Shown here in pieces: positions 35,075 to 40,770 of a stretch of DNA of 64,000 bases; the stretch's first letter is position 1, and every line of letters starts with the position of its first letter. The notes beneath the pieces were generated by a model. The model saw nothing but the letters and a program-made list of their open reading frames with translations, searched no databases and was not told where the DNA came from. The stretch lies in the sequence record MT887289.1; one strand, given 5' to 3'. This stretch comes from Escherichia phage SME50. The position numbers and the translations under genes were made by a program.

Positions 35075-35446
35075 ATGAAAAACAGAACAAACAAAGGCCA
35101 GTTTAAAAAAGGCCAGTCTGGTAACCCATCTGGAAGACCGAAAGGTTCTCGTAACAAAAGCTCACTTGTAAAAGCTCAACTGACCATTGATAATTCTGCT
35201 GAGTTTGCTGCAAAGTTGTTTGAAGCGATTGTTACAAGGGACGCTGCTAAGCTTGCAGAGTTCGGGTTAAACACAGATGACGTAACCATCAAGAGCATGA
35301 TTGAGGTCGGTAAAACTATCTTTACTCACTCAGCAGGTGAGATGAAAGCACTTGCAGCAGACACTAAGAAGACTTCTGATAATGGTGGTCAGTCACAGAC
35401 AGATAACAAACCAACGTTCTCTGCTGTAGCGACTCTCAAAAAATAA
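35075..35446 (+). CDS. hypothetical protein with basic Gly/Pro-rich N-terminal motif
   Basis: 123-aa ORF; N-terminus KGQFKKGQSGNPSGRPKGSRNK. Confidence 0.5.
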   Translation: MKNRTNKGQFKKGQSGNPSGRPKGSRNKSSLVKAQLTIDNSAEFAAKLFEAIVTRDAAKLAEFGLNTDDVTIKSMIEVGKTIFTHSAGEMKALAADTKKTSDNGGQSQTDNKPTFSAVATLKK

Positions 35447-35526: not shown

Positions 35527-36942
35527 ATGAGCGAATTATTTAAACATGCGCACCTTCATGCAGGTCGAACTGAAAATGGTGCTGTAAACCATACTTCATC
35601 AATGTCTGCTCTGGTAGACTTCTACAAAGCCGCTGGCTCAAGCCGTAGCAATGTAGAAATCTTACCAGACCTGTTCTACAAAGCTTTGCGTGAGGATGTT
35701 GATGTTGCAGTTCGTATTTTACTGCATATGCGAGATGTACGAGAAGGTATGGGTGAGCGTAAAGCTTTCCGAACTGTTTTACTTCAAGCGATTGAAGATA
35801 AGGTTTTAGAACCTACACAGGTTCTTCGCATTATGGATAAGATTGCAGAACTTGGTCGTTTTGATGACTTCAAAATCTTTGTAGGTACTCGTTTTGAGAC
35901 AGATGCCTTCAAACATTTAGAAGCAGCATTACTAGACCCTGCAACAGCAGGTTTAGCGGCTAAGTGGTTACCACGAGTAAAACCACGCCACAAACAGTTT
36001 GTAAAACGTTTCTGTAAGTTTGCAAACTTAAGTGAGAAGGAGTATCGCACACTGTTATCTGCACTGTCCGATACGGTTGAGCAAAAAATCTCTGCTAATG
36101 AGTTTGGTAAGATTGACTACAGCAAGATTCCTTCACTCGCTGCTGCACGTTACCAAAAGCTCTTTAACCGTAAAGATGGTGAACGTTACAAAGCTTATAT
36201 CGAGTCACTCTCAAAGGGTGAGGCTAAGATTAACGCTGGTGCCGTTTACCCATACGATGTGATTAAATCTATCAAGTATGGTAATGCAGGTGTTGCTAAT
36301 GAGCAGTGGAAAGCACTACCAAACTGGATGGCAGAGGGTGAAAACATCTTGTGTATGACTGATGTTTCAAGCTCAATGTCTTGGGTGAATCTTGGTTCAA
36401 TCACTGCCCTTGATATTGGCGTATCACTTGCCTTGTATGTAGCAGAACGCAATACAGGTTGCTTTAAGAATGAGTTAATGGTTTATTCAACAAACCCTCA
36501 CTTCATCGAACTGAGTGGTGATTTGAGAAACCGTCACCGTCAGGTAATGCGTCATGTTGAATATGGTTCAACTAACTTACAAGCAGCTTTTGACCGCATT
36601 CTTGAAATAGGTAAGAGAAACAACTTGACTCAGAAAGATATGCCAAGTAAGCTTATTATCTTCTCTGATATGGAGTTTAATCAGGTTGATGGTGCAAATG
36701 GTCGTACAAACTTTGAAGCAATTCAGAGTAAGTACAAAAAAGCTGGATACGAAATGCCACAACTAGTATTCTGGTACTTAGCAAACCGTAATGGTACTTG
36801 CGAAGTATCTGTTAAAGATAATGGTGTAGCAATGGTATCAGGGTTCTCTCCAGCCACTTTAAAAGCTCTGCTTGGTGGTGAGAAGTTTGACCCAATCAGC
36901 GTAATGCTCAAAGCAGTAATGATTGACCGTTACATCTGGTAA
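35527..36942 (+). CDS. vWA (MIDAS) domain protein with large alpha-helical N-terminal domain; candidate Ro60/TROVE-like RNA-binding protein
   Basis: 471-aa ORF; MIDAS-type motif LCMTDVSSSMSW in the C-terminal third; lies immediately upstream of the tRNA array. Confidence 0.45.
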   Translation: MSELFKHAHLHAGRTENGAVNHTSSMSALVDFYKAAGSSRSNVEILPDLFYKALREDVDVAVRILLHMRDVREGMGERKAFRTVLLQAIEDKVLEPTQVLRIMDKIAELGRFDDFKIFVGTRFETDAFKHLEAALLDPATAGLAAKWLPRVKPRHKQFVKRFCKFANLSEKEYRTLLSALSDTVEQKISANEFGKIDYSKIPSLAAARYQKLFNRKDGERYKAYIESLSKGEAKINAGAVYPYDVIKSIKYGNAGVANEQWKALPNWMAEGENILCMTDVSSSMSWVNLGSITALDIGVSLALYVAERNTGCFKNELMVYSTNPHFIELSGDLRNRHRQVMRHVEYGSTNLQAAFDRILEIGKRNNLTQKDMPSKLIIFSDMEFNQVDGANGRTNFEAIQSKYKKAGYEMPQLVFWYLANRNGTCEVSVKDNGVAMVSGFSPATLKALLGGEKFDPISVMLKAVMIDRYIW

Positions 36943-36960: not shown

Positions 36961-36989
36961 TTGACAATGTGTTTGATACCCTTTAATAT
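36961..36989 (+). promoter_or_regulatory. sigma70-like promoter upstream of the tRNA array
   Basis: TTGACA - 17 nt - TAATAT. Confidence 0.55.
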
Positions 36990-37051
36990 GTTCTACATAG
37001 AAACGAAATGAGAGCTTTTCTAAGATACTGAAAAATATTTTAAAAAAGTTC

Positions 37052-37081
37052 TTGACAATCACTAAAAAATAATGTTAAAGT
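37052..37081 (+). promoter_or_regulatory. sigma70-like promoter (extended -10) upstream of the first tRNA
   Basis: TTGACA - 18 nt - TGnTAAAGT about 25 nt before tRNA-Pro. Confidence 0.45.
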
Positions 37082-37191: not shown

Positions 37192-37269
37192 GTTCCAGTA
37201 GACAAAACGGTAAAGTCACCACTCTTTCAAAGTGGATATTTGAGGGTTCAAATCCCTTCTGGAACGCCA
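37192..37269 (+). tRNA. tRNA-Glu(TTC)
   Basis: Acceptor GTTCCAG/CTGGAAC, anticodon stem CCACT/AGTGG with loop CTTTCAA, T-loop TTCAAAT, CCA encoded. Confidence 0.7.
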
Positions 37270-37276
37270 GTTTTGA

Positions 37277-37349
37277 CAGAAGACCAATTGCAGCAAACTT
37301 AATCTTATTCATCTGACACGAAATCGGACAAAGAAGATATTTGGTCTGG
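37277..37349 (+). ncRNA. conserved inverted-repeat element A (CAGAAGACCAA ... TTGGTCTGG)
   Basis: 7-bp closing helix; conserved 5' block CAGAAGACCnnnTTGCAGCAAA; immediately follows a tRNA 3' end. Confidence 0.35.
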
Positions 37350-37360
37350 TCATTAAGAAT

Positions 37361-37437
37361 TGCGGGTATAGAGAAAGGGCGTCTCACATGTCTCATTAGC
37401 ATGGTATCGGCAGGTTCGACTCCTGCACCCGCCTCCA
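37361..37437 (+). tRNA. tRNA-Met(CAT), possibly initiator-type
   Basis: Anticodon stem CATGT/GCATG with loop CTCATTA; T-arm GCAGG-TTCGACT-CCTGC; position 1-72 unpaired (T/C); CCA encoded. Confidence 0.6.
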
Positions 37438-37443
37438 ATTTTG

Positions 37444-37503
37444 CAGAAGACCGTATTCAGCAACAAAATACTTTTTGCGGATAAAAGAAAAAACACGGTC
37501 TGG
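37444..37503 (+). ncRNA. conserved inverted-repeat element B (CAGAAGACCGT ... ACGGTCTGG)
   Basis: 7-bp closing helix around an A/T-rich loop; shares the 5' block with elements A, C, D. Confidence 0.35.
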
Positions 37504-37514
37504 CAATGTATTAA

Positions 37515-37591
37515 GGTTAGGAAGCACATAAGGTATGTGCGGTCGCCTGTTAAGCGAATGGCACAGGGTTCGAATCCCTGACTAACCGCAA
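37515..37591 (+). tRNA. tRNA-Asn(GTT)
   Basis: D-arm GCAC...GTGC, anticodon loop CTGTTAA, T-arm CAGGG-TTCGAAT-CCCTG; 3' end reads CAA not CCA. Confidence 0.6.
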
Positions 37592-37600
37592 AATTTAAAT

Positions 37601-37688
37601 GTGTCGTTATCCCGTAGATGGTAGCGGTGGGGACTGTAAATCCCTTGTCATTGAGACTCGGTAGGTTCGACTCCTACACGGCACACCA
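37601..37688 (+). tRNA. tRNA-Tyr(GTA), class II
   Basis: Acceptor GTGTCGT/ACGGCAC, anticodon stem GGGGA/TCCCT with loop CTGTAAA, long variable arm, T-arm GTAGG-TTCGACT-CCTAC, CCA encoded. Confidence 0.7.
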
Positions 37689-37710
37689 ACACTTAGCGAG
37701 ATACTTAGTT

Positions 37711-38139
37711 ATGAGAGATGAAGTATACAAATCACAACTTGGTATGAGTTTAGGAACTGCACAAAACAGACTAGTAAAAGATTTGCTATTTGATTTTATA
37801 TGTAAAACAAATCAAAATAGATGTTTTCAGTGCGGAAAGGAAATGACTAGGGATGATTTCTCTATCGAGCATAAGATTCCGTGGAGACATAGTGAAAATG
37901 CAAAAGAGCTTTTCTTTTCACTAGATAACATTTCTTATAGTCATCTTAAATGCAACATGAAAGCAGCAAGACCAGCACAGATAAGTGAAAGAAAACCTAA
38001 AACAATTAAACACGGAACTGCGTATAGCTATTACAAAGGCTGTAGATGCGATGCGTGTAGGCTGGCTAAGAATGCTGAGAGTAGAAGAAACTATAGTCCA
38101 GAAAGACGTAGGAAGAAGTATATAAGAAATGGTACATAG
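37711..38139 (+). CDS. HNH homing endonuclease inside the tRNA array
   Basis: CFQCGK...EHKIPW...N...H HNH motif; start moved to ATG 37711 because the track ORF start (37618) overlaps tRNA-Tyr. Confidence 0.65.
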   Translation: MRDEVYKSQLGMSLGTAQNRLVKDLLFDFICKTNQNRCFQCGKEMTRDDFSIEHKIPWRHSENAKELFFSLDNISYSHLKCNMKAARPAQISERKPKTIKHGTAYSYYKGCRCDACRLAKNAESRRNYSPERRRKKYIRNGT

Positions 38140-38144
38140 GTTTT

Positions 38145-38220
38145 GGGGTATTAGTTTAGACGGGTAAAATACTGGATTGTCTCTCCTGAGCCGCGAGTTC
38201 GATTCTCGCATACCTCGCCA
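38145..38220 (+). tRNA. tRNA-Asp(GTC)
   Basis: Acceptor GGGGTAT/ATACCTC, anticodon loop TTGTCTC (one stem mismatch), T-arm GCGAG-TTCGATT-CTCGC, CCA encoded. Confidence 0.55.
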
Positions 38221-38281
38221 ATTTTGAGAGGGCTATTTAGCCCCTCCCTTAAAGAGTTCTTACGAGTATTCTTTAAAGGAG

Positions 38282-38355
38282 CAGAAGACCAAATTCAGCA
38301 AGTTACTTAAAATTTCAAGCCAATTTAATTTTGAAAAATTTAAAACTTGGTCTGG
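38282..38355 (+). ncRNA. conserved inverted-repeat element C (CAGAAGACCAA ... TTGGTCTGG)
   Basis: Same family as A/B/D; A/T-rich interior. Confidence 0.35.
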
Positions 38356-38368
38356 CTCAACAAATTTA

Positions 38369-38500
38369 CAGAAGACCGTTTACAGCAAAACTTAAACAAT
38401 CTATTTCTCCGGTAAAGAAAAGGCGAAGGTTCGATTCCTTCACTCGGCAGATGTCGAGTTGGTGTAATGGTAGCACTTAAGATGATAAACAACGGTCTGG
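38369..38500 (+). ncRNA. candidate Y-RNA-like ncRNA: circularly permuted tRNA-like module closed by an 8-bp terminal helix (element D)
   Basis: Order 5'-helix, CTTAA, T-arm GAAGG-TTCGATT-CCTTC, acceptor-3' ACTCGGC, acceptor-5' GTCGAGT, D-arm GTGT-AATGGTA-GCAC, TTAAG, 3'-helix; the two acceptor halves are complementary to each other. Confidence 0.45.
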
Positions 38501-38507
38501 TAATTGT

Positions 38508-38639
38508 CTTTGTAGATAAGTTATTAAGCTTACCTGTGAGTATGCGACCACAAAGGGTGAAAGGGTAAATTCTAGATTTAAACCCAACAAGGCACATCGC
38601 TACAGACCTTAAGCAAGTCTGGGTAGCTTATCTACAAAG
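38508..38639 (+). ncRNA. structured element bounded by a perfect 13-bp inverted repeat (CTTTGTAGATAAG ... CTTATCTACAAAG)
   Basis: 13-bp perfect IR encloses about 105 nt including an internal CAGACC...GTCTGG hairpin; no ORF. Confidence 0.35.
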
Positions 38640-38649
38640 ATAATTTAAT

Positions 38650-38725
38650 GGAAGTGTAGCAGAATGGTGATGCGGCAGACTTTTAATCTGACAGGCGATG
38701 GGTTCGAATCCCTCCACTTCTACCA
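38650..38725 (+). tRNA. tRNA-Lys(TTT)
   Basis: Acceptor GGAAGTG/CACTTCT, anticodon loop CTTTTAA, T-loop TTCGAAT, CCA encoded; T-stem has only 3 clean pairs. Confidence 0.55.
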
Positions 38726-38729
38726 AAAT

Positions 38730-38806
38730 GGTTCAGTCGCAGATAAGGTAATGCAGGGGTTTCATAAGCCCTATGAATGTGGGTTCGATTCCCATCTGAA
38801 CCTCCA
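38730..38806 (+). tRNA. tRNA with CAT anticodon (elongator Met or Ile2)
   Basis: Acceptor GGTTCAG/CTGAACC, anticodon stem GGGGT/GCCCT with loop TTCATAA, T-arm GTGGG-TTCGATT-CCCAT, CCA encoded. Confidence 0.6.
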
Positions 38807-38808
38807 AT

Positions 38809-38884
38809 GCTGTGAAAGCACATATGGATGTGCATTCGGCTGATAACCGAAAGGAAGAAGGTTCGAATCCTTCTCACAGTACCA
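38809..38884 (+). tRNA. tRNA-Ile(GAT)
   Basis: D-arm GCAC...GTGC, anticodon stem TTCGG/CCGAA with loop CTGATAA, T-arm GAAGG-TTCGAAT-CCTTC, CCA encoded. Confidence 0.7.
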
Positions 38885-38899
38885 ATTTCAATAAAGTTG

Positions 38900-38928
38900 T
38901 TGACATTGAGATGTGACCACTTTATAGT
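38900..38928 (+). promoter_or_regulatory. sigma70-like promoter within the tRNA array
   Basis: TTGACA - 17 nt - TATAGT. Confidence 0.55.
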
Positions 38929-39250
38929 AACTAAAATACTTCATAATATGTATAATTCAAACACCAATACATGAGCGTTAGACGTAACACAATGTGGGGA
39001 AATTTGTTGTACATATTCTGAATAGTTTTCGTTGCGTAGCGTCTATTTTGCAAATTTAAAATAAATGCAAACGACAATGTTTTTCTGGCAGTAGCTTGAT
39101 AGGCTAAACACCAGTGAGGTCTTCCAATCCCTCATCAAAGAATTTGGCGTACTCGCCCACGGTATGATTAATAAGGTGGGCAACATTCTAAAGGGTATCC
39201 CTTATGGGGCTTGGCTTAAATGCAATGAGTACCCTTTAAAATGTTAATTA

Positions 39251-39332
39251 CGGGGCGTATCTCAGCGGTCTTCTAAACCGCCGTTAACCGAGTAAGTGGA
39301 GTATGCGGGTTCGAGTCCTGCCGCCTCGACCA
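39251..39332 (+). tRNA. atypical tRNA-like gene (good acceptor/T-arm and a TCT-containing stem-loop, but no recognisable D-arm); isotype uncertain
   Basis: Acceptor CGGGGCG/CGCCTCG, T-arm GCGGG-TTCGAGT-CCTGC, CCA encoded; internal hairpin GCGGT-CTTCTAA-ACCGC. Confidence 0.35.
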
Positions 39333-39346
39333 ATTTTGGATGAAAT

Positions 39347-39695
39347 CATGAAGACTTGTATTAGGTGCAAACTTAGCAAGGATGAAAGTGATTTCTACAT
39401 GAAAGATGGTAGGAGAACTCATTCATACTGTAAAAAGTGTGTTAATGAGCAAACCATAGAAAGACAAAGAGCACTTAAACTTTCAGCTATTGAGTACAAA
39501 GGTGGTGTTTGTCAGGATTGTGGTAAAAGGTATCATCCAGCAGTGTATGACTTCCATCATTTGAATCCTTCAGAGAAAGATTTTAACATTGCTCATAGAA
39601 GAAGTCTTAAGTTCTCTCAGGAGCTTAAGAACGAACTTGACAAATGTGTTTTGCTATGTTCAAATTGCCATAGGGTAAGACATGCAAAGTATTAG
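39347..39695 (+). CDS. HNH endonuclease (zinc-finger plus HNH) inside the tRNA array
   Basis: CIRC...CKKC zinc-finger then HHLNP...CVLLCSNCHRVRH; start moved to ATG 39347 because the track ORF start overlaps the upstream tRNA-like gene. Confidence 0.65.
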
Positions 39696-39832
39696 TTAGC
39701 AGATTGCTTAGACGACCTTATCGGGTCTCCGTGTAAGGAGGTGGTCTGTATCTCATGTTTTCCAGAACATGTAAATAATCTGAGAAGGGGCTTTACAGTG
39801 TTGCGAAAATACGGTAAGCTTCGAATTATAGT

Positions 39833-39915
39833 GTGGGACGATGTTAAGACTCTAAGGCATGAGCAACGGCCTCCAAAACCGTTTCAAAGGGGTTCAACTC
39901 CTCCGTCCCATGCCA
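39833..39915 (+). tRNA. tRNA-Trp(CCA) (D-region longer than canonical)
   Basis: Acceptor GTGGGAC/GTCCCAT, anticodon loop CTCCAAA as in bacterial tRNA-Trp, T-loop TTCAACT, CCA encoded. Confidence 0.45.
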
Positions 39916-39928
39916 AAGTCTTATTAGG

Positions 39929-40016
39929 GGTAGGTAGCGGCTAATGGCAGCCAAACAGTCTTGAAAACTGTTGCCACTGTAGAGATACGGTGAGGGTTCG
40001 ACTCCTTTACTTACCG
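39929..40016 (+). tRNA. tRNA-Ser(TGA), class II
   Basis: Acceptor GGTAGGT/ACTTACC, anticodon stem ACAGT/ACTGT with loop CTTGAAA, long variable arm, T-loop TTCGACT; CCA not fully encoded. Confidence 0.6.
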
Positions 40017-40175
40017 CCTAATAAGATTTTACACCGTCCATGCTTGCTCGCATTTTCGGTTTATCCCTCGTGTATTGTCGTACACACTGATAAAGCACCT
40101 AGTAGGTGTCACGGAGAAGAGATAATATCAAGCTCTCCAAAGGTTCTAGTCACCGGATTAAACAAGACTATGCAA

Positions 40176-40195
40176 AGACCTAAATAGGTCTTTTT
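40176..40195 (+). terminator. rho-independent terminator
   Basis: AGACCT-AAAT-AGGTCT hairpin followed by TTTTT. Confidence 0.5.
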
Positions 40196-40274
40196 AGAGG
40201 GCTTCTAAGGTTATTACAGCTTGTTGTGGAACCTTGTTGCTTAGGTTCTTAGAAGTTCTCTAAAAAGATTTAAT

Positions 40275-40352
40275 GGGAGATTGACGGTAATTGGTAAACC
40301 TACCATCCTTAGAAGTTGGTGTTTGAGGGTTCGAATCCCTTGTCTCCTACCA
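40275..40352 (+). tRNA. tRNA with anticodon TAG (Leu-type anticodon) but short variable arm; identity uncertain
   Basis: Acceptor GGGAGAT/GTCTCCT, anticodon loop CTTAGAA, T-arm GAGGG-TTCGAAT-CCCTT, A73, CCA encoded. Confidence 0.45.
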
Positions 40353-40359
40353 AATTAAT

Positions 40360-40435
40360 GCAGGTGTAGCAAAATGGTTATGCGGCTGACTCTTAATCAG
40401 TAAGACGATGGGTTCAATTCCCTCCACCTGTACCA
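40360..40435 (+). tRNA. tRNA-Lys(CTT)
   Basis: Paralog of the 38650 tRNA: acceptor GCAGGTG/CACCTGT, anticodon stem GCTGA/TCAGT with loop CTCTTAA, T-loop TTCAATT, CCA encoded. Confidence 0.55.
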
Positions 40436-40439
40436 AATT

Positions 40440-40515
40440 GGGGTCATAGTTTATATGGTTAAAATTCGAGTTTTGCAAACTTGGGAACTGAGTTCAATTC
40501 TCAGTGACTCCACCA
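40440..40515 (+). tRNA. tRNA-Ala(TGC)
   Basis: Acceptor GGGGTCA/TGACTCC, anticodon loop TTTGCAA, T-arm CTGAG-TTCAATT-CTCAG, CCA encoded. Confidence 0.65.
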
Positions 40516-40521
40516 ATTAGT

Positions 40522-40596
40522 GCATCCATAGTTTAAACGGGAAAATTACAGTCTTCCAAACTGAGGTTGAGGGTTCGATTCCCTCTGGATGCTCCA
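40522..40596 (+). tRNA. tRNA-Gly(TCC)
   Basis: Acceptor GCATCCA/TGGATGC, anticodon loop CTTCCAA, T-arm GAGGG-TTCGATT-CCCTC, CCA encoded. Confidence 0.65.
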
Positions 40597-40603
40597 AATT
40601 AAT

Positions 40604-40679
40604 GCTCCTATCGTATAATTGGCTATTACGGTTGCCTTGTAAGCAACTTATCAGGGTTCGAATCCTTGTGGGAGCACCA
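40604..40679 (+). tRNA. tRNA-Thr(TGT)
   Basis: Acceptor GCTCCTA/TGGGAGC, anticodon stem GTTGC/GCAAC with loop CTTGTAA, T-arm CAGGG-TTCGAAT-CCTTG, CCA encoded. Confidence 0.7.
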
Positions 40680-40682
40680 ATT

Positions 40683-40770
40683 CAGAGGTCAAGTGAAAGA
40701 CCGCTTTGAGTCAACTGAAGACCGTAACAAATTCCACGGAGTTGAGTTAGCGGCACAACTTCAGACCTCT
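40683..40770 (+). ncRNA. inverted-repeat element E (CAGAGGTC ... GACCTCT) containing a GAAGACC block
   Basis: 7-bp closing helix and internal hairpins; immediately follows tRNA-Thr. Confidence 0.3.

What the first reader, a model, noticed from the sequence alone, without database searches (positions are those of the whole stretch)
37277..40770. Family of conserved inverted-repeat elements placed immediately 3' of tRNA genes
Five elements (37277-37349, 37444-37503, 38282-38355, 38369-38500, 40683-40770) share a 5' block CAGAAGACC(R)nnTTcAGCAA and a complementary 3' block GGTCT(GG), forming 7-8-bp closing helices around 40-110-nt interiors. Four start within 10 nt of a tRNA 3' end. A sixth element (38508-38639) is closed by a perfect 13-bp inverted repeat. 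None is coding. They could be processing signals, small RNAs, protein-binding sites or homing-endonuclease targets.
Basis: seen in the sequence. Interest (0 to 1): 0.6.

Follow-up and report, generated by a model that had tools for sequence, protein, structure and literature searches.

The report
Phage Y-RNA-like genes beside Ro60-like gene
Four of the repeated elements in this Felix O1-like phage's tRNA cluster are most likely small structured RNAs that partner with the Ro60-like protein encoded just upstream, and they share a recognition module found next to the same protein family in many unrelated phages.

Summary
The window is a Felix O1-like phage. Four of the five listed elements (37274-37352, 37441-37506, 38279-38358, 38366-38503) are real paralogues. 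They all lie on the + strand, inside the tRNA transcription unit. Each has a 7-8-bp closing helix, directly followed by an invariant (U)NCAGCAA loop, then a variable apical domain.

The fourth element has a circularly permuted tRNA-like domain (T arm, closed acceptor stem, D arm). This is the architecture of bacterial YrlA Y RNAs.

The ORF that ends 335 nt upstream (35527-36942) matches Pfam DUF2828/DUF7788. Its predicted structure matches only Ro60/TROVE structures over its full length.

The same helix-plus-ACAGCAA module lies on the gene strand within 1 kb of DUF2828 genes in 47 of 75 metagenomic viral loci. It is also present in phages of Aeromonas, Klebsiella, Cronobacter, Campylobacter, Pseudomonas, Listeria, Staphylococcus and Mycobacterium. 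The helix covaries strongly.

The module differs from the published GNCGAAG Ro-binding motif. It has no Rfam match.

The fifth element (40683-40770) is a different conserved hairpin. The sixth (38502-38645) is a separate structured RNA.

Verdict: Y-RNA-like genes, a new variant of a known kind. Binding to the protein is inferred, not shown.

The parts
35527..36942 (+). Ro60-like protein gene (471 aa; Felix O1 ORF42, annotated 'RNA-binding protein'). This is the proposed protein partner of the RNAs.
   Evidence: Pfam gives DUF2828 + DUF7788 and a weak VWA_2 match, but not TROVE. PHROG 850 is named 'RNA-binding protein'. The AlphaFold2 model has pLDDT 87.5. The top 11 Foldseek PDB hits are all Ro60/TROVE/Rsr over the full length, E 1e-8 to 5e-7. 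D279, S281 and S283 are invariant, a MIDAS-like DxSxS motif.
36961..37081 (+). Two sigma-70-like promoters (36961-36989 and 37052-37081) in front of tRNA-Pro. They would drive the unit that contains E1-E4.
   Evidence: Each matches 10 of 12 consensus positions. No terminator-like site lies on the + strand before 38900. These are consensus matches only.
37274..37352 (+). E1, a short Y-like RNA between tRNA-Glu (ends 37269) and tRNA-Met (starts 37361). P0 is 37274-37277/37349-37352, P1 is 37281-37287/37341-37347, and the loop motif UUGCAGCAA is 37288-37296. It has an apical 5-bp hairpin.
   Evidence: (R1 32.3 bits). It is conserved in Felix O1, Sf14, SUSP2 and Maleficent. One A-U to G-U change occurs in P1.
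37441..37506 (+). E2, a short Y-like RNA between tRNA-Met (ends 37437) and tRNA-Asn (starts 37515). P1 is 37448-37454/37495-37501.
   Evidence: (R1 38.3 bits). P0 shows a compensatory G-C to A-U change in 3 of 6 genomes.
38279..38358 (+). E3, a short Y-like RNA downstream of tRNA-Asp. P1 is 38286-38292/38347-38353.
38366..38503 (+). E4, a YrlA-like RNA. P1 is 38373-38380/38491-38498 and ACAGCAA is 38382-38388. The anticodon-arm-like hairpin is 38404-38420 and the T arm is 38425-38441. The closed acceptor stem is 38442-38459, 7 bp with loop AGAU. The D arm is 38462-38476.
   Evidence: The MFE fold gives exactly these arms. Across five Ounavirinae, 97.9% of cells are paired and three acceptor-stem pairs carry compensatory changes. 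Model R1 finds homologues next to Ro-like genes in a mycobacteriophage (51.5 bits) and a Klebsiella phage (51.2 bits). The Rfam tRNA model gives only a partial 22-bit hit, below the 29-bit threshold.
38502..38645 (+). E6, a separate structured RNA with a 22-24-bp closing helix. Its inner hairpin at 38602-38620 (CAGAC-CUUAAGCAA-GUCUG, then GG) resembles a miniature module. Its relation to the family is uncertain.
   Evidence: The fold z-score is -5.4. Alifold over five Ounavirinae shows six pairs with compensatory changes.
37192..38725 (+). Flanking tRNA genes: Glu 37192-37269, Met 37361-37437, Asn 37515-37589, Tyr 37601-37688, Asp 38145-38220, Lys 38650-38725. Their maturation would release the elements.
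   Evidence: ARAGORN and Rfam. Release by RNase P and 3' trimming is inferred from established tRNA processing, not tested here.

Best explanation
E1-E4 are genes for small non-coding RNAs of about 65-140 nt. They are co-transcribed with the phage tRNAs and are probably freed by tRNA maturation, that is, by RNase P at the next tRNA and by 3' trimming.

Each RNA pairs its 5' and 3' ends. In this lineage there is a short outer helix P0, an AGA/G internal loop, and a 7-8-bp helix P1. The invariant single-stranded (U)NCAGCAA follows immediately on the 5' side, and the 3' side is A-rich. This module is proposed to be the docking site for the Ro60-like ring protein encoded directly upstream. That would make the RNAs functional counterparts of Y RNAs.

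The apical domains differ. E1-E3 carry a simple hairpin, like YrlB. E4 carries a complete, circularly permuted tRNA-like cloverleaf with a closed acceptor stem, like YrlA. By analogy with known Y RNAs, the apical domains would tether or gate different partners.

Shown here: the RNA structure with covariation, the Ro60 fold of the protein, and the strand-specific, distance-dependent co-occurrence of module and gene across phage families. Inferred: expression, processing, and physical binding to the protein.
For: 1. The motif has four hits in the window, versus at most three in any of 100 shuffles. All four are on the transcribed strand.

2. P1 covaries. In 46 distinct modules from 14 phage loci, all 7 core pairs change on both sides. 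There are 132 double-change cells versus 39 +/- 6 in shuffles and 12-28 in slid controls.

3. E4 folds as closing stem, T arm, closed acceptor stem and D arm. The acceptor stem is entirely rewritten but still paired in Sf14/SUSP2 and Maleficent. This is the order of arms published for YrlA (PMC4201824; YrlA sequence).

4. The upstream ORF has the Ro60 fold. Its homologues in cluster L mycobacteriophages are annotated 'Ro-like RNA binding protein'.

5. Model R1 and a module scanner find the same module next to the homologous gene in Klebsiella, Aeromonas, Cronobacter, Campylobacter, Mycobacterium, Listeria, Pseudomonas and Staphylococcus phages.

6. In 75 IMG/VR loci with a 39-47%-identical homologue there are 89 hits on the gene strand, 9 on the opposite strand and about 10 in shuffles. 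Density is 40-48 per 100 kb within 1 kb of the gene, versus 1-6 elsewhere, and 47 of 75 loci have a hit within 1 kb.

7. Bxz1 has a canonical TROVE Ro60. It carries a GCCGAAG-type YrlA and no ACAGCAA, so each motif type goes with its own protein type.

8. Published context. Bas63 is a Felixounavirus. Its gp130 is Ro60-like, sits directly upstream of the tRNAs and counters the Ppl defence. The authors only guessed that some 'tRNAs' might be Y RNAs. In Listeria phage CKA15, three very highly transcribed unannotated regions lie within 2 kb upstream of the homologue. In the related A511, three modules sit 30-300 nt upstream of the homologous gene.
Against: There is no binding or expression data for this phage.

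The canonical Ro-binding motifs (GGUCCGA, GNCGAAN0-1G) are absent. The protein fails the Pfam TROVE model and has no sequence-level PDB hit.

Bas63 gp130 alone, moved into T7 or onto a plasmid, still counters Ppl. The protein therefore has at least one activity that does not need the phage RNAs.

The 3' partners in the covariation alignment were chosen by complementarity, so the percentage paired is partly circular. KVP40 and 28 of 75 metagenomic loci showed no module within the region scanned. A short covariance model of the module alone (R2) failed to recover the elements. Unrelated viral control loci gave a higher background of scanner hits than shuffles did: 4.4 per 100 kb per strand.
Confidence: 0.75

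Rival explanations
1. The elements are cis-acting processing or stability signals of the polycistronic tRNA precursor. They would be entry or stop sites for RNase E, RNase III or exonucleases, with no dedicated protein partner.
For: They lie within 4-12 nt of tRNA ends and inside one transcription unit. tRNA spacers are known to be processed.
Against: Only a few of about 24 junctions carry them. Helices of 7-8 bp are too short for RNase III, by established knowledge of that enzyme. In other phages the module sits next to the DUF2828 gene even where there is no tRNA nearby, as in Staphylococcus 6ec and mycobacteriophage Rumpelstiltskin. Module density falls about tenfold beyond 1 kb from that gene. 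The tRNA-like domain of E4 has no role in this model.
Confidence: 0.08
2. The modules are operator sites through which the DUF2828 protein autoregulates its own mRNA or operon. They would be UTR elements rather than free trans-acting RNAs.
For: In many loci the modules lie 0-300 nt upstream or downstream of the gene, on the same strand.
Against: In this phage they start 335 nt after the stop codon, beyond two promoters and two tRNAs, and would be cut away by tRNA processing. There are 3-8 copies per phage, with diverse apical domains that include tRNA mimics. That fits RNP scaffolds better than operators.
Confidence: 0.07
3. The elements are decaying tRNA genes or fused tRNA remnants left by rearrangement of the array. 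They would be conserved only by recent common ancestry.
For: E4 contains T-arm, D-arm and acceptor sequences. Tandem tRNA-like genes carrying the module exist in Cronobacter phage S13. This suggests an origin by fusion of neighbouring genes.
Against: E1-E3 have no tRNA parts. Helices are maintained by compensatory changes across genera and across phage families. The invariant CAGCA is kept between phages of Gram-positive, Gram-negative and actinobacterial hosts.
Confidence: 0.04
4. The elements are DNA-level features: homing-endonuclease recognition sites, miniature inverted-repeat mobile elements, or binding sites for a DNA-binding protein.
For: Two HNH ORFs lie in the array, at 37711-38139 and 39348-39695. 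The elements have inverted-repeat ends.
Against: All copies have one orientation. G-U pairs are tolerated only on the + strand. The repeat arms vary in sequence while staying complementary, the opposite of transposon ends. HNH ORFs differ in position among relatives without affecting the elements.
Confidence: 0.02

Closest known systems
Bacterial YrlA / YrlB Y RNAs bound by Rsr (Ro60), e.g. Salmonella Typhimurium and Mycobacterium smegmatis (Chen et al. 2014, PMC4201824)
   Same: They are encoded within about 2 kb of a Ro60-type gene, on the same strand. There are several paralogues per genome. The 5' and 3' ends pair into a stem with an internal loop. One paralogue carries a tRNA-like domain in the order T arm, closed acceptor stem, D arm, and the others are simple hairpins. 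A 7-bp acceptor-like stem occurs, as in M. smegmatis YrlA.
   Different: The conserved motif is (U)ACAGCAA directly after the closing helix, not GNCGAAN0-1G. The partner protein belongs to Pfam DUF2828/DUF7788 and is recognisable as Ro60 only by fold. E4 also keeps an anticodon-arm-like hairpin. The genes are embedded in a tRNA array. Binding has not been shown.
Phage Ro60 with Y-RNA-like RNAs: Thermus phage phiLo phiRo60 with Yrl1/Yrl2 (PMC12135203), and mycobacteriophage Bxz1/ET08-type YrlA
   Same: A phage-encoded Ro60-fold protein has adjacent small RNAs that have a terminal stem and an internal loop. phiLo Ro60 (9kop, 9l5y) is among the best structural matches of the ORF here.
   Different: Bxz1 gp220 passes the Pfam TROVE and vWA_Ro60 models, and its RNA has the GCCGAAG-type motif. 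phiLo's Yrls were picked by their CGAA motif. The protein and RNAs here have neither.
Bas63 (Felixounavirus) gp130, a Ro60-like counter-defence protein against Ppl (bioRxiv 10.1101/2024.10.10.617714)
   Same: By synteny it is the same gene in the same genus, directly upstream of the tRNA array. Its Ro60 structural similarity was already noted.
   Different: That work did not locate any Y RNA. It suggested that some annotated tRNAs might be Y RNAs. The candidates found here are the unannotated spacers between tRNAs. gp130 worked without them in T7.
Metazoan Y RNAs (Rfam RF00019)
   Same: Overall logic: a terminal helix with an asymmetric internal loop serves as the protein-binding site, and a variable distal domain differs between paralogues.
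   Different: There is no sequence or covariance-model similarity; no Y RNA family appears among Rfam hits at E <= 10. The motif is different, and the RNAs would arise by tRNA-linked bacterial-type processing rather than Pol III transcription.

Membership tests
Y RNA (Ro60-associated ncRNA) | Physically bound by a Ro60 orthologue in vivo | not testable with these tools
   This needs immunoprecipitation or EMSA. Only genomic association is available.
Y RNA (Ro60-associated ncRNA) | Encoded close to the Ro60 gene (within about 2 kb) and on the same strand | tested here: met
   The ORF ends at 36942. E1 starts at 37274 and E4 ends at 38503, all on the + strand. The same arrangement is seen in 47 of 75 metagenomic loci.
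Y RNA (Ro60-associated ncRNA) | 5' and 3' ends pair into a stem that adjoins an internal loop | tested here: met
   MFE folds. P1 covariation. P0 plus the AGA/G loop in Ounavirinae.
Y RNA (Ro60-associated ncRNA) | Canonical Ro-binding sequence (GGUCCGA in animals; GNCGAAN0-1G in YrlA/YrlB) | tested here: not met
   None of E1-E4 contains it. The conserved blocks are CAGAAGACC and NCAGCAA. The canonical motif is present in the Bxz1 control.
YrlA subfamily | tRNA-like domain in the order T arm, closed acceptor-like stem, D arm, with tRNA-like T and D loops | tested here: met
   Met for E4 only. The T loop is UUCGAUU and the D loop is AAUGGUA, with a 7-bp acceptor stem that carries compensatory changes. 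R1 finds equivalents in a mycobacteriophage and a Klebsiella phage. E1-E3 lack this domain.
Ro60 / TROVE protein family (for the partner ORF) | Match to Pfam TROVE (PF05731) and vWA_Ro60 (PF25045) | tested here: not met
   Only DUF2828, DUF7788 and a sub-threshold VWA_2 match. Bxz1 gp220 passes both models.
Ro60 / TROVE protein family (for the partner ORF) | Helical-repeat ring plus C-terminal vWA domain with a MIDAS motif | tested here: met
   The model has pLDDT 87.5 and pTM 0.87. The top 11 PDB matches are all Ro60/Rsr/phiRo60 over about 520-557 aligned columns, TM 0.42-0.65. D279, S281 and S283 are invariant.
tRNA | Full cloverleaf with free acceptor ends, scoring above the Rfam/ARAGORN thresholds | tested here: not met
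   ARAGORN makes no call for any element. E4 gives a partial 22-bit hit against a 29-bit threshold. Its acceptor stem is closed by a loop.
Intrinsic terminator | GC-rich hairpin followed by a U tract | tested here: not met
   No + strand terminator-like site lies at any element. P1 is followed by GGUCA, GGCAA, GGCUC or GGUAA.
Any described RNA family (Rfam 15) | Covariance-model match | tested here: not met
   There is no relevant family at E <= 10 over 37265-38650. Only tRNA hits appear in eight related loci at gathering thresholds.

The most novel reading that the evidence does not exclude
The P1-helix-plus-ACAGCAA unit is the recognition element of a distinct, phage-wide ribonucleoprotein family built on DUF2828-type Ro60-like proteins. 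This family would run parallel to the TROVE/GNCGAAG system and is undescribed as an RNA family. The module has been grafted onto many scaffolds in two topologies. In one, the RNA ends lie at P1 and the acceptor stem is closed (E4; cluster L mycobacteriophages). In the other, normal tRNA ends are kept and P1 forms an extra arm between the D arm and the anticodon region (Klebsiella FBKp34, Cronobacter S13, Aeromonas LAh_6). If so, phages would tether tRNA-shaped RNAs to a Ro-like ring, possibly as part of counter-defence, as for Bas63 gp130 against Ppl.
Probability: 0.45. Interest if true: 0.8.

Novelty: new variant of a known kind. Interest (0 to 1): 0.68.

Why it matters
Ro60-Y RNA particles are known from animals, some bacteria and a few phages. 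What they do in phages is an open question.

A Felixounavirus Ro60-like protein was recently shown to counter a bacterial defence system, but its RNA partners were only guessed at. This analysis pinpoints concrete candidate RNAs: four per genome, unannotated, lying between tRNAs.

It also gives a sequence and structure signature, helix plus ACAGCAA, that recurs next to the same protein family in phages of at least nine host genera. That makes the partnership directly testable by pull-down, mutagenesis and deletion on Ppl hosts.

It would also let hundreds of phage genomes be re-annotated. These include over-long 'tRNAs' that appear to be module-bearing tRNA mimics.

Tried and rejected
1. A scan of IMG/VR with the bare 14-base pattern returned mostly single chance matches. 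Only three Felix-like contigs had multiple hits, so it was useless for finding distant relatives.

2. MAFFT alignment of E4 with the Klebsiella homologue misaligned the D arm. I replaced it with an Ounavirinae-only alignment and a hand-written structure.

3. Covariance model R2, built from an artificial 41-nt concatenation of the two module halves, could not span the real 40-110-nt interiors. It ranked chance hairpins above the true elements, so I rejected it as a specificity test.

4. Sequence search of the ORF against PDB chains found nothing. Only the fold comparison was informative.

5. Rfam scans at permissive thresholds gave no family for any element.

6. A literature search for DUF2828 found only unrelated plant and animal papers. 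Searches for Felix O1 small-RNA or transcriptome data found nothing usable.

7. The supplementary phage table of Chen et al. 2014 is not held. I could not check whether cluster L mycobacteriophage RNAs of this type were among their 22 phages.

8. I considered and rejected terminators (no U tract), RNase III sites (helices too short), and homing-endonuclease targets or MITEs (single orientation, covarying arms).

9. Unrelated viral loci used as a negative control gave more scanner hits (4.4 per 100 kb per strand) than shuffles or the opposite strand of DUF2828 loci (about 1). The scanner alone is therefore not specific, and the positional enrichment is the stronger statistic.

Full report
**Identity of the window.** The region 37000-41100 matches 331 phage records at 80-99% identity. 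Nearly all are Felixounavirus and other Ounavirinae infecting Escherichia, Salmonella, Shigella and Citrobacter. ARAGORN finds 25 tRNA genes on the + strand between 37108 and 42947. The finding lies in the first part of this array.

**Checking the observation.** The pattern AGAAGACCNNNNNCAGCAA occurs exactly four times in the 64-kb window. All four are on the + strand, at 37278, 37445, 38283 and 38370, and none of 100 shuffles reached four. Each is followed by GGTCTGG 35-105 nt later.
- The closing helix is AGACC plus two or three further pairs. These differ between paralogues in a compensatory way.
- Single-sequence folds place this helix as the outermost stem in all four.
- The fifth listed element (40683-40770) lacks the block. 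It was recovered neither by the pattern with two mismatches nor by model R1. It is a different hairpin that is stable (z = -3.97) and almost invariant in five Ounavirinae genomes.
- The sixth element is confirmed as a long inverted repeat with a very stable fold (z = -5.4).
- Only E1, E2 and E5 start within 10 nt of a tRNA 3' end.

**Anatomy of the fourth element.** E4 (38366-38503) folds, from 5' to 3', as follows:
- closing helix;
- single-stranded UUACAGCAA;
- a 5-bp hairpin with a 7-nt loop;
- a T arm, GAAGG-UUCGAUU-CCUUC;
- a 7-bp stem ACUCGGC/GUCGAGU closed by AGAU;
- UG;
- a D arm, GUGU-AAUGGUA-GCAC;
- the 3' strand of the closing helix.

This is a circularly permuted tRNA with a closed acceptor stem. 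In Felix O1, Sf14 (Mooglevirus), SUSP2 (Suspvirus) and Maleficent the T and D arms are kept. The acceptor stem is rewritten but still pairs: ACACG../..CGUGU in Sf14 and SUSP2, ACCCUUC/GAAGGGU in Maleficent. Overall 97.9% of cells are paired, and three acceptor pairs have changes on both sides. The order T arm, acceptor-like stem-loop, D arm between the paired RNA ends is the published architecture of bacterial YrlA Y RNAs (PMC4201824; crystallised YrlA sequence).

**The neighbouring gene.** The ORF at 35527-36942 ends 335 nt before E1.
- Felix O1 annotates it as 'RNA-binding protein', and PHROG 850 carries the same name.
- Pfam gives DUF2828 and DUF7788 plus a sub-threshold VWA match, not TROVE. 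There is no sequence-level hit to any PDB chain.
- An AlphaFold2 model from a 38-sequence alignment is confident (pLDDT 87.5, pTM 0.87).
- Its 11 best Foldseek matches in the PDB are all Ro60: Xenopus Ro60 with and without RNA, Deinococcus Rsr, human Ro60 complexes and Thermus phage phiLo Ro60. They align over the full length at E 1e-8 to 5e-7. The next matches are isolated vWA domains at E > 1e-3.
- tblastn finds homologues in 709 phage records. The cluster L mycobacteriophage homologues are annotated 'Ro-like RNA binding protein'.

**The module travels with the gene.** Covariance model R1 was built from E4 of five Ounavirinae.
- R1 found a 132-nt RNA immediately 3' of the Ro-like gene of mycobacteriophage Rumpelstiltskin (51.5 bits). 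It also found one 3' of the DUF2828 gene of Klebsiella phage FBKp34 (51.2 bits).
- Through local alignment of the ends, R1 also found short elements next to the homologous gene in Aeromonas, Listeria, Staphylococcus, Pseudomonas, Cronobacter and Campylobacter phages.
- All share one module. A helix of 5-8 bp usually begins AG.../...CU. It is followed on the 5' side by (U)(A/U)(A/U)CAGCA(A/C). The 3' strand is followed by G and usually UAA.
- I wrote a simple scanner. It takes the 8-nt strand ending two bases before CAGCA and asks for at least 7 consecutive pairs with a partner within 175 nt that is followed by G. On 14 annotated loci it gave 62 hits on the gene strand, 11 on the other strand, and about 10 on both strands of shuffles.
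- In 46 distinct modules, aligned without gaps, every core pair of the helix shows changes on both sides. There are 132 such cells, against 39 in shuffles and 12-28 when the partner is slid. CAGCA and the 3' G are invariant. The 3' partners were chosen by complementarity, so the percentage paired is partly circular. The diversity of pair types at a fixed register is not.

**An independent test.** I fetched 75 IMG/VR loci encoding homologues only 39-47% identical to the ORF.
- The scanner gave 89 hits on the gene strand, 9 on the opposite strand and about 10 per strand in shuffles.
- Density is 39.5 and 48.3 hits per 100 kb in the 1 kb upstream and downstream of the gene. It is 0.9-5.7 everywhere else, including inside the gene.
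- 47 of the 75 loci have at least one hit within 1 kb.

The module therefore tracks the DUF2828 gene, not tRNA arrays as such. Unrelated viral loci gave a higher background than shuffles (4.4 per 100 kb per strand). For that reason I rely on the positional and strand asymmetry rather than on raw counts.

**Contrast with the canonical system.** Mycobacteriophage Bxz1 gp220 passes the Pfam TROVE and vWA_Ro60 models. The RNA upstream of it has T arm, acceptor stem and D arm together with a GCCGAAG motif, which fits the published GNCGAAN0-1G. It has no ACAGCAA, and R1 does not hit it. So there appear to be two pairings: TROVE with GNCGAAG, and DUF2828 with helix-ACAGCAA. Rfam 15 has no family for the latter.

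**Details specific to this phage.**
- Alignments of E1, E2 and E3 across genera show a further outer helix P0. It uses the conserved C of CAGA and the second G of GGUCUGG. There is one compensatory G-C to A-U change in E2, and G-U variants occur elsewhere. This leaves an AGA/G asymmetric internal loop between P0 and P1.
- A-to-G changes in P1 (Sf14 E2, Maleficent E1) give G-U pairs on the + strand only. This argues for an RNA structure on the transcribed strand.
- Two strong sigma-70-like promoters precede tRNA-Pro. No + strand terminator-like site occurs before the next promoter at 38900. E1-E4 and E6 would therefore be made as part of the tRNA precursor and released by tRNA maturation. That step is inferred from established tRNA processing, not tested here.

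**Published context.**
- Chen et al. 2014 reported YrlA-like RNAs near annotated TROVE genes in 254 bacteria and 22 phages. A later paper lists these phages as mycobacteriophages, CcrColossus and Bacillus phage G. Their phage table is not available here.
- The PhageMaP preprint shows that Bas63 (Felixounavirus) gp130 is Ro60-like by structure and lies directly upstream of the tRNAs. It counters the Ppl defence, also when moved alone into T7. The authors only suggest that some annotated tRNAs might be Y RNAs.
- The Listeria phage CKA15 study reports three very abundant unannotated transcripts within 2 kb upstream of the homologue, and proposes Y RNAs as one possibility. In the related phage A511, I find three modules 30-300 nt upstream of the homologous gene.
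- None of these papers describes the module or locates the RNAs in Felix-like phages.

**Conclusion.** E1-E4 are best explained as Y-RNA-like genes that partner with the Ro60-like protein. E4 is the YrlA-type member and E1-E3 are hairpin-type members. They fail the sequence definitions of both the RNA family (canonical motif) and the protein family (Pfam TROVE). They match both in architecture, genomic linkage and protein fold. I therefore classify them as a new variant of a known kind. Expression, processing and binding remain to be shown. gp130's RNA-independent activity against Ppl means the role of the RNAs is open. E5 does not belong to the family. E6 is a separate structured RNA with supported helices, and its inner hairpin only loosely resembles the module.

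Noticed in passing
window 40683-40770: E5 is a stable 88-nt imperfect hairpin between tRNA-Thr and tRNA-Val. It is almost invariant in five Ounavirinae genomes from three genera, although neighbouring spacers diverge. It has no CAGCAA motif. Function unknown.
   Followed up: partly
window 38502-38645: E6 is a 144-nt RNA with a 22-24-bp closing helix and six pairs with compensatory changes between Felix-like and Moogle/Susp-like phages. Its inner hairpin at 38602-38620 (CAGAC-CUUAAGCAA-GUCUG, then GG) looks like a miniature of the module. Some relatives lack this element.
   Followed up: partly
L125 8003-8116; L128 6895-7016 and 7025-7138; L127 2494-2610: In Klebsiella FBKp34, Cronobacter S13 and Aeromonas LAh_6 there are over-long 'tRNAs' of 113-122 nt. 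They have normal acceptor ends, D arms and T arms. They carry the P1 hairpin plus UACAGCA as an extra arm between the D arm and the anticodon region. This is the un-permuted topology of E4. GenBank annotates three of them (those in FBKp34 and S13) as tRNA-Asp, tRNA-Ser or tRNA-OTHER; the LAh_6 one is unannotated.
   Followed up: partly
window 39249-39329: A tRNA-like gene is called by Rfam (31.7 bits) but not by ARAGORN. It has a good acceptor stem, T arm and anticodon arm (loop CUUCUAA, anticodon UCU, Arg) but an irregular D region and a long stretch after the anticodon arm. The Sf14 homologue is annotated tRNA-Arg(TCT).
   Followed up: no
window 39835-39917: A second uncalled tRNA-like sequence has an acceptor stem, a T arm and an anticodon-like loop CUCCAAA (CCA, Trp). 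Its D region is oversized. It gives only a weak hit to the tRNA-Sec model (23 bits).
   Followed up: no
window 37711-38139 and 39348-39695: Two HNH endonuclease ORFs lie inside the tRNA array. Relatives carry HNH ORFs at other junctions; Felix O1 has three at different places. These ORFs are therefore mobile relative to the conserved RNAs.
   Followed up: partly
window 38900-39250 and 40020-40275: Two non-coding stretches lie inside the array. The first follows a strong promoter-like site at 38900-38928 and has a 16-nt, 94%-complementary inverted repeat (39182-39197/39230-39245). The second has a 21-nt, 90%-complementary inverted repeat (40189-40209/40248-40268). Neither has an Rfam match.
   Followed up: no
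L214 23830-23990 (mycobacteriophage Bxz1): A canonical YrlA-type RNA with a GCCGAAG motif lies upstream of the TROVE-type gp220. I used it as a contrast case. It shows that the two motif types segregate with the two protein types.
   Followed up: yes
window 35075-35446: A small ORF (Pfam DUF5681, PHROG 4114) sits directly upstream of the Ro60-like gene. It keeps that position in Sf14, SUSP2 and Maleficent, so it may be a functional partner.
   Followed up: no
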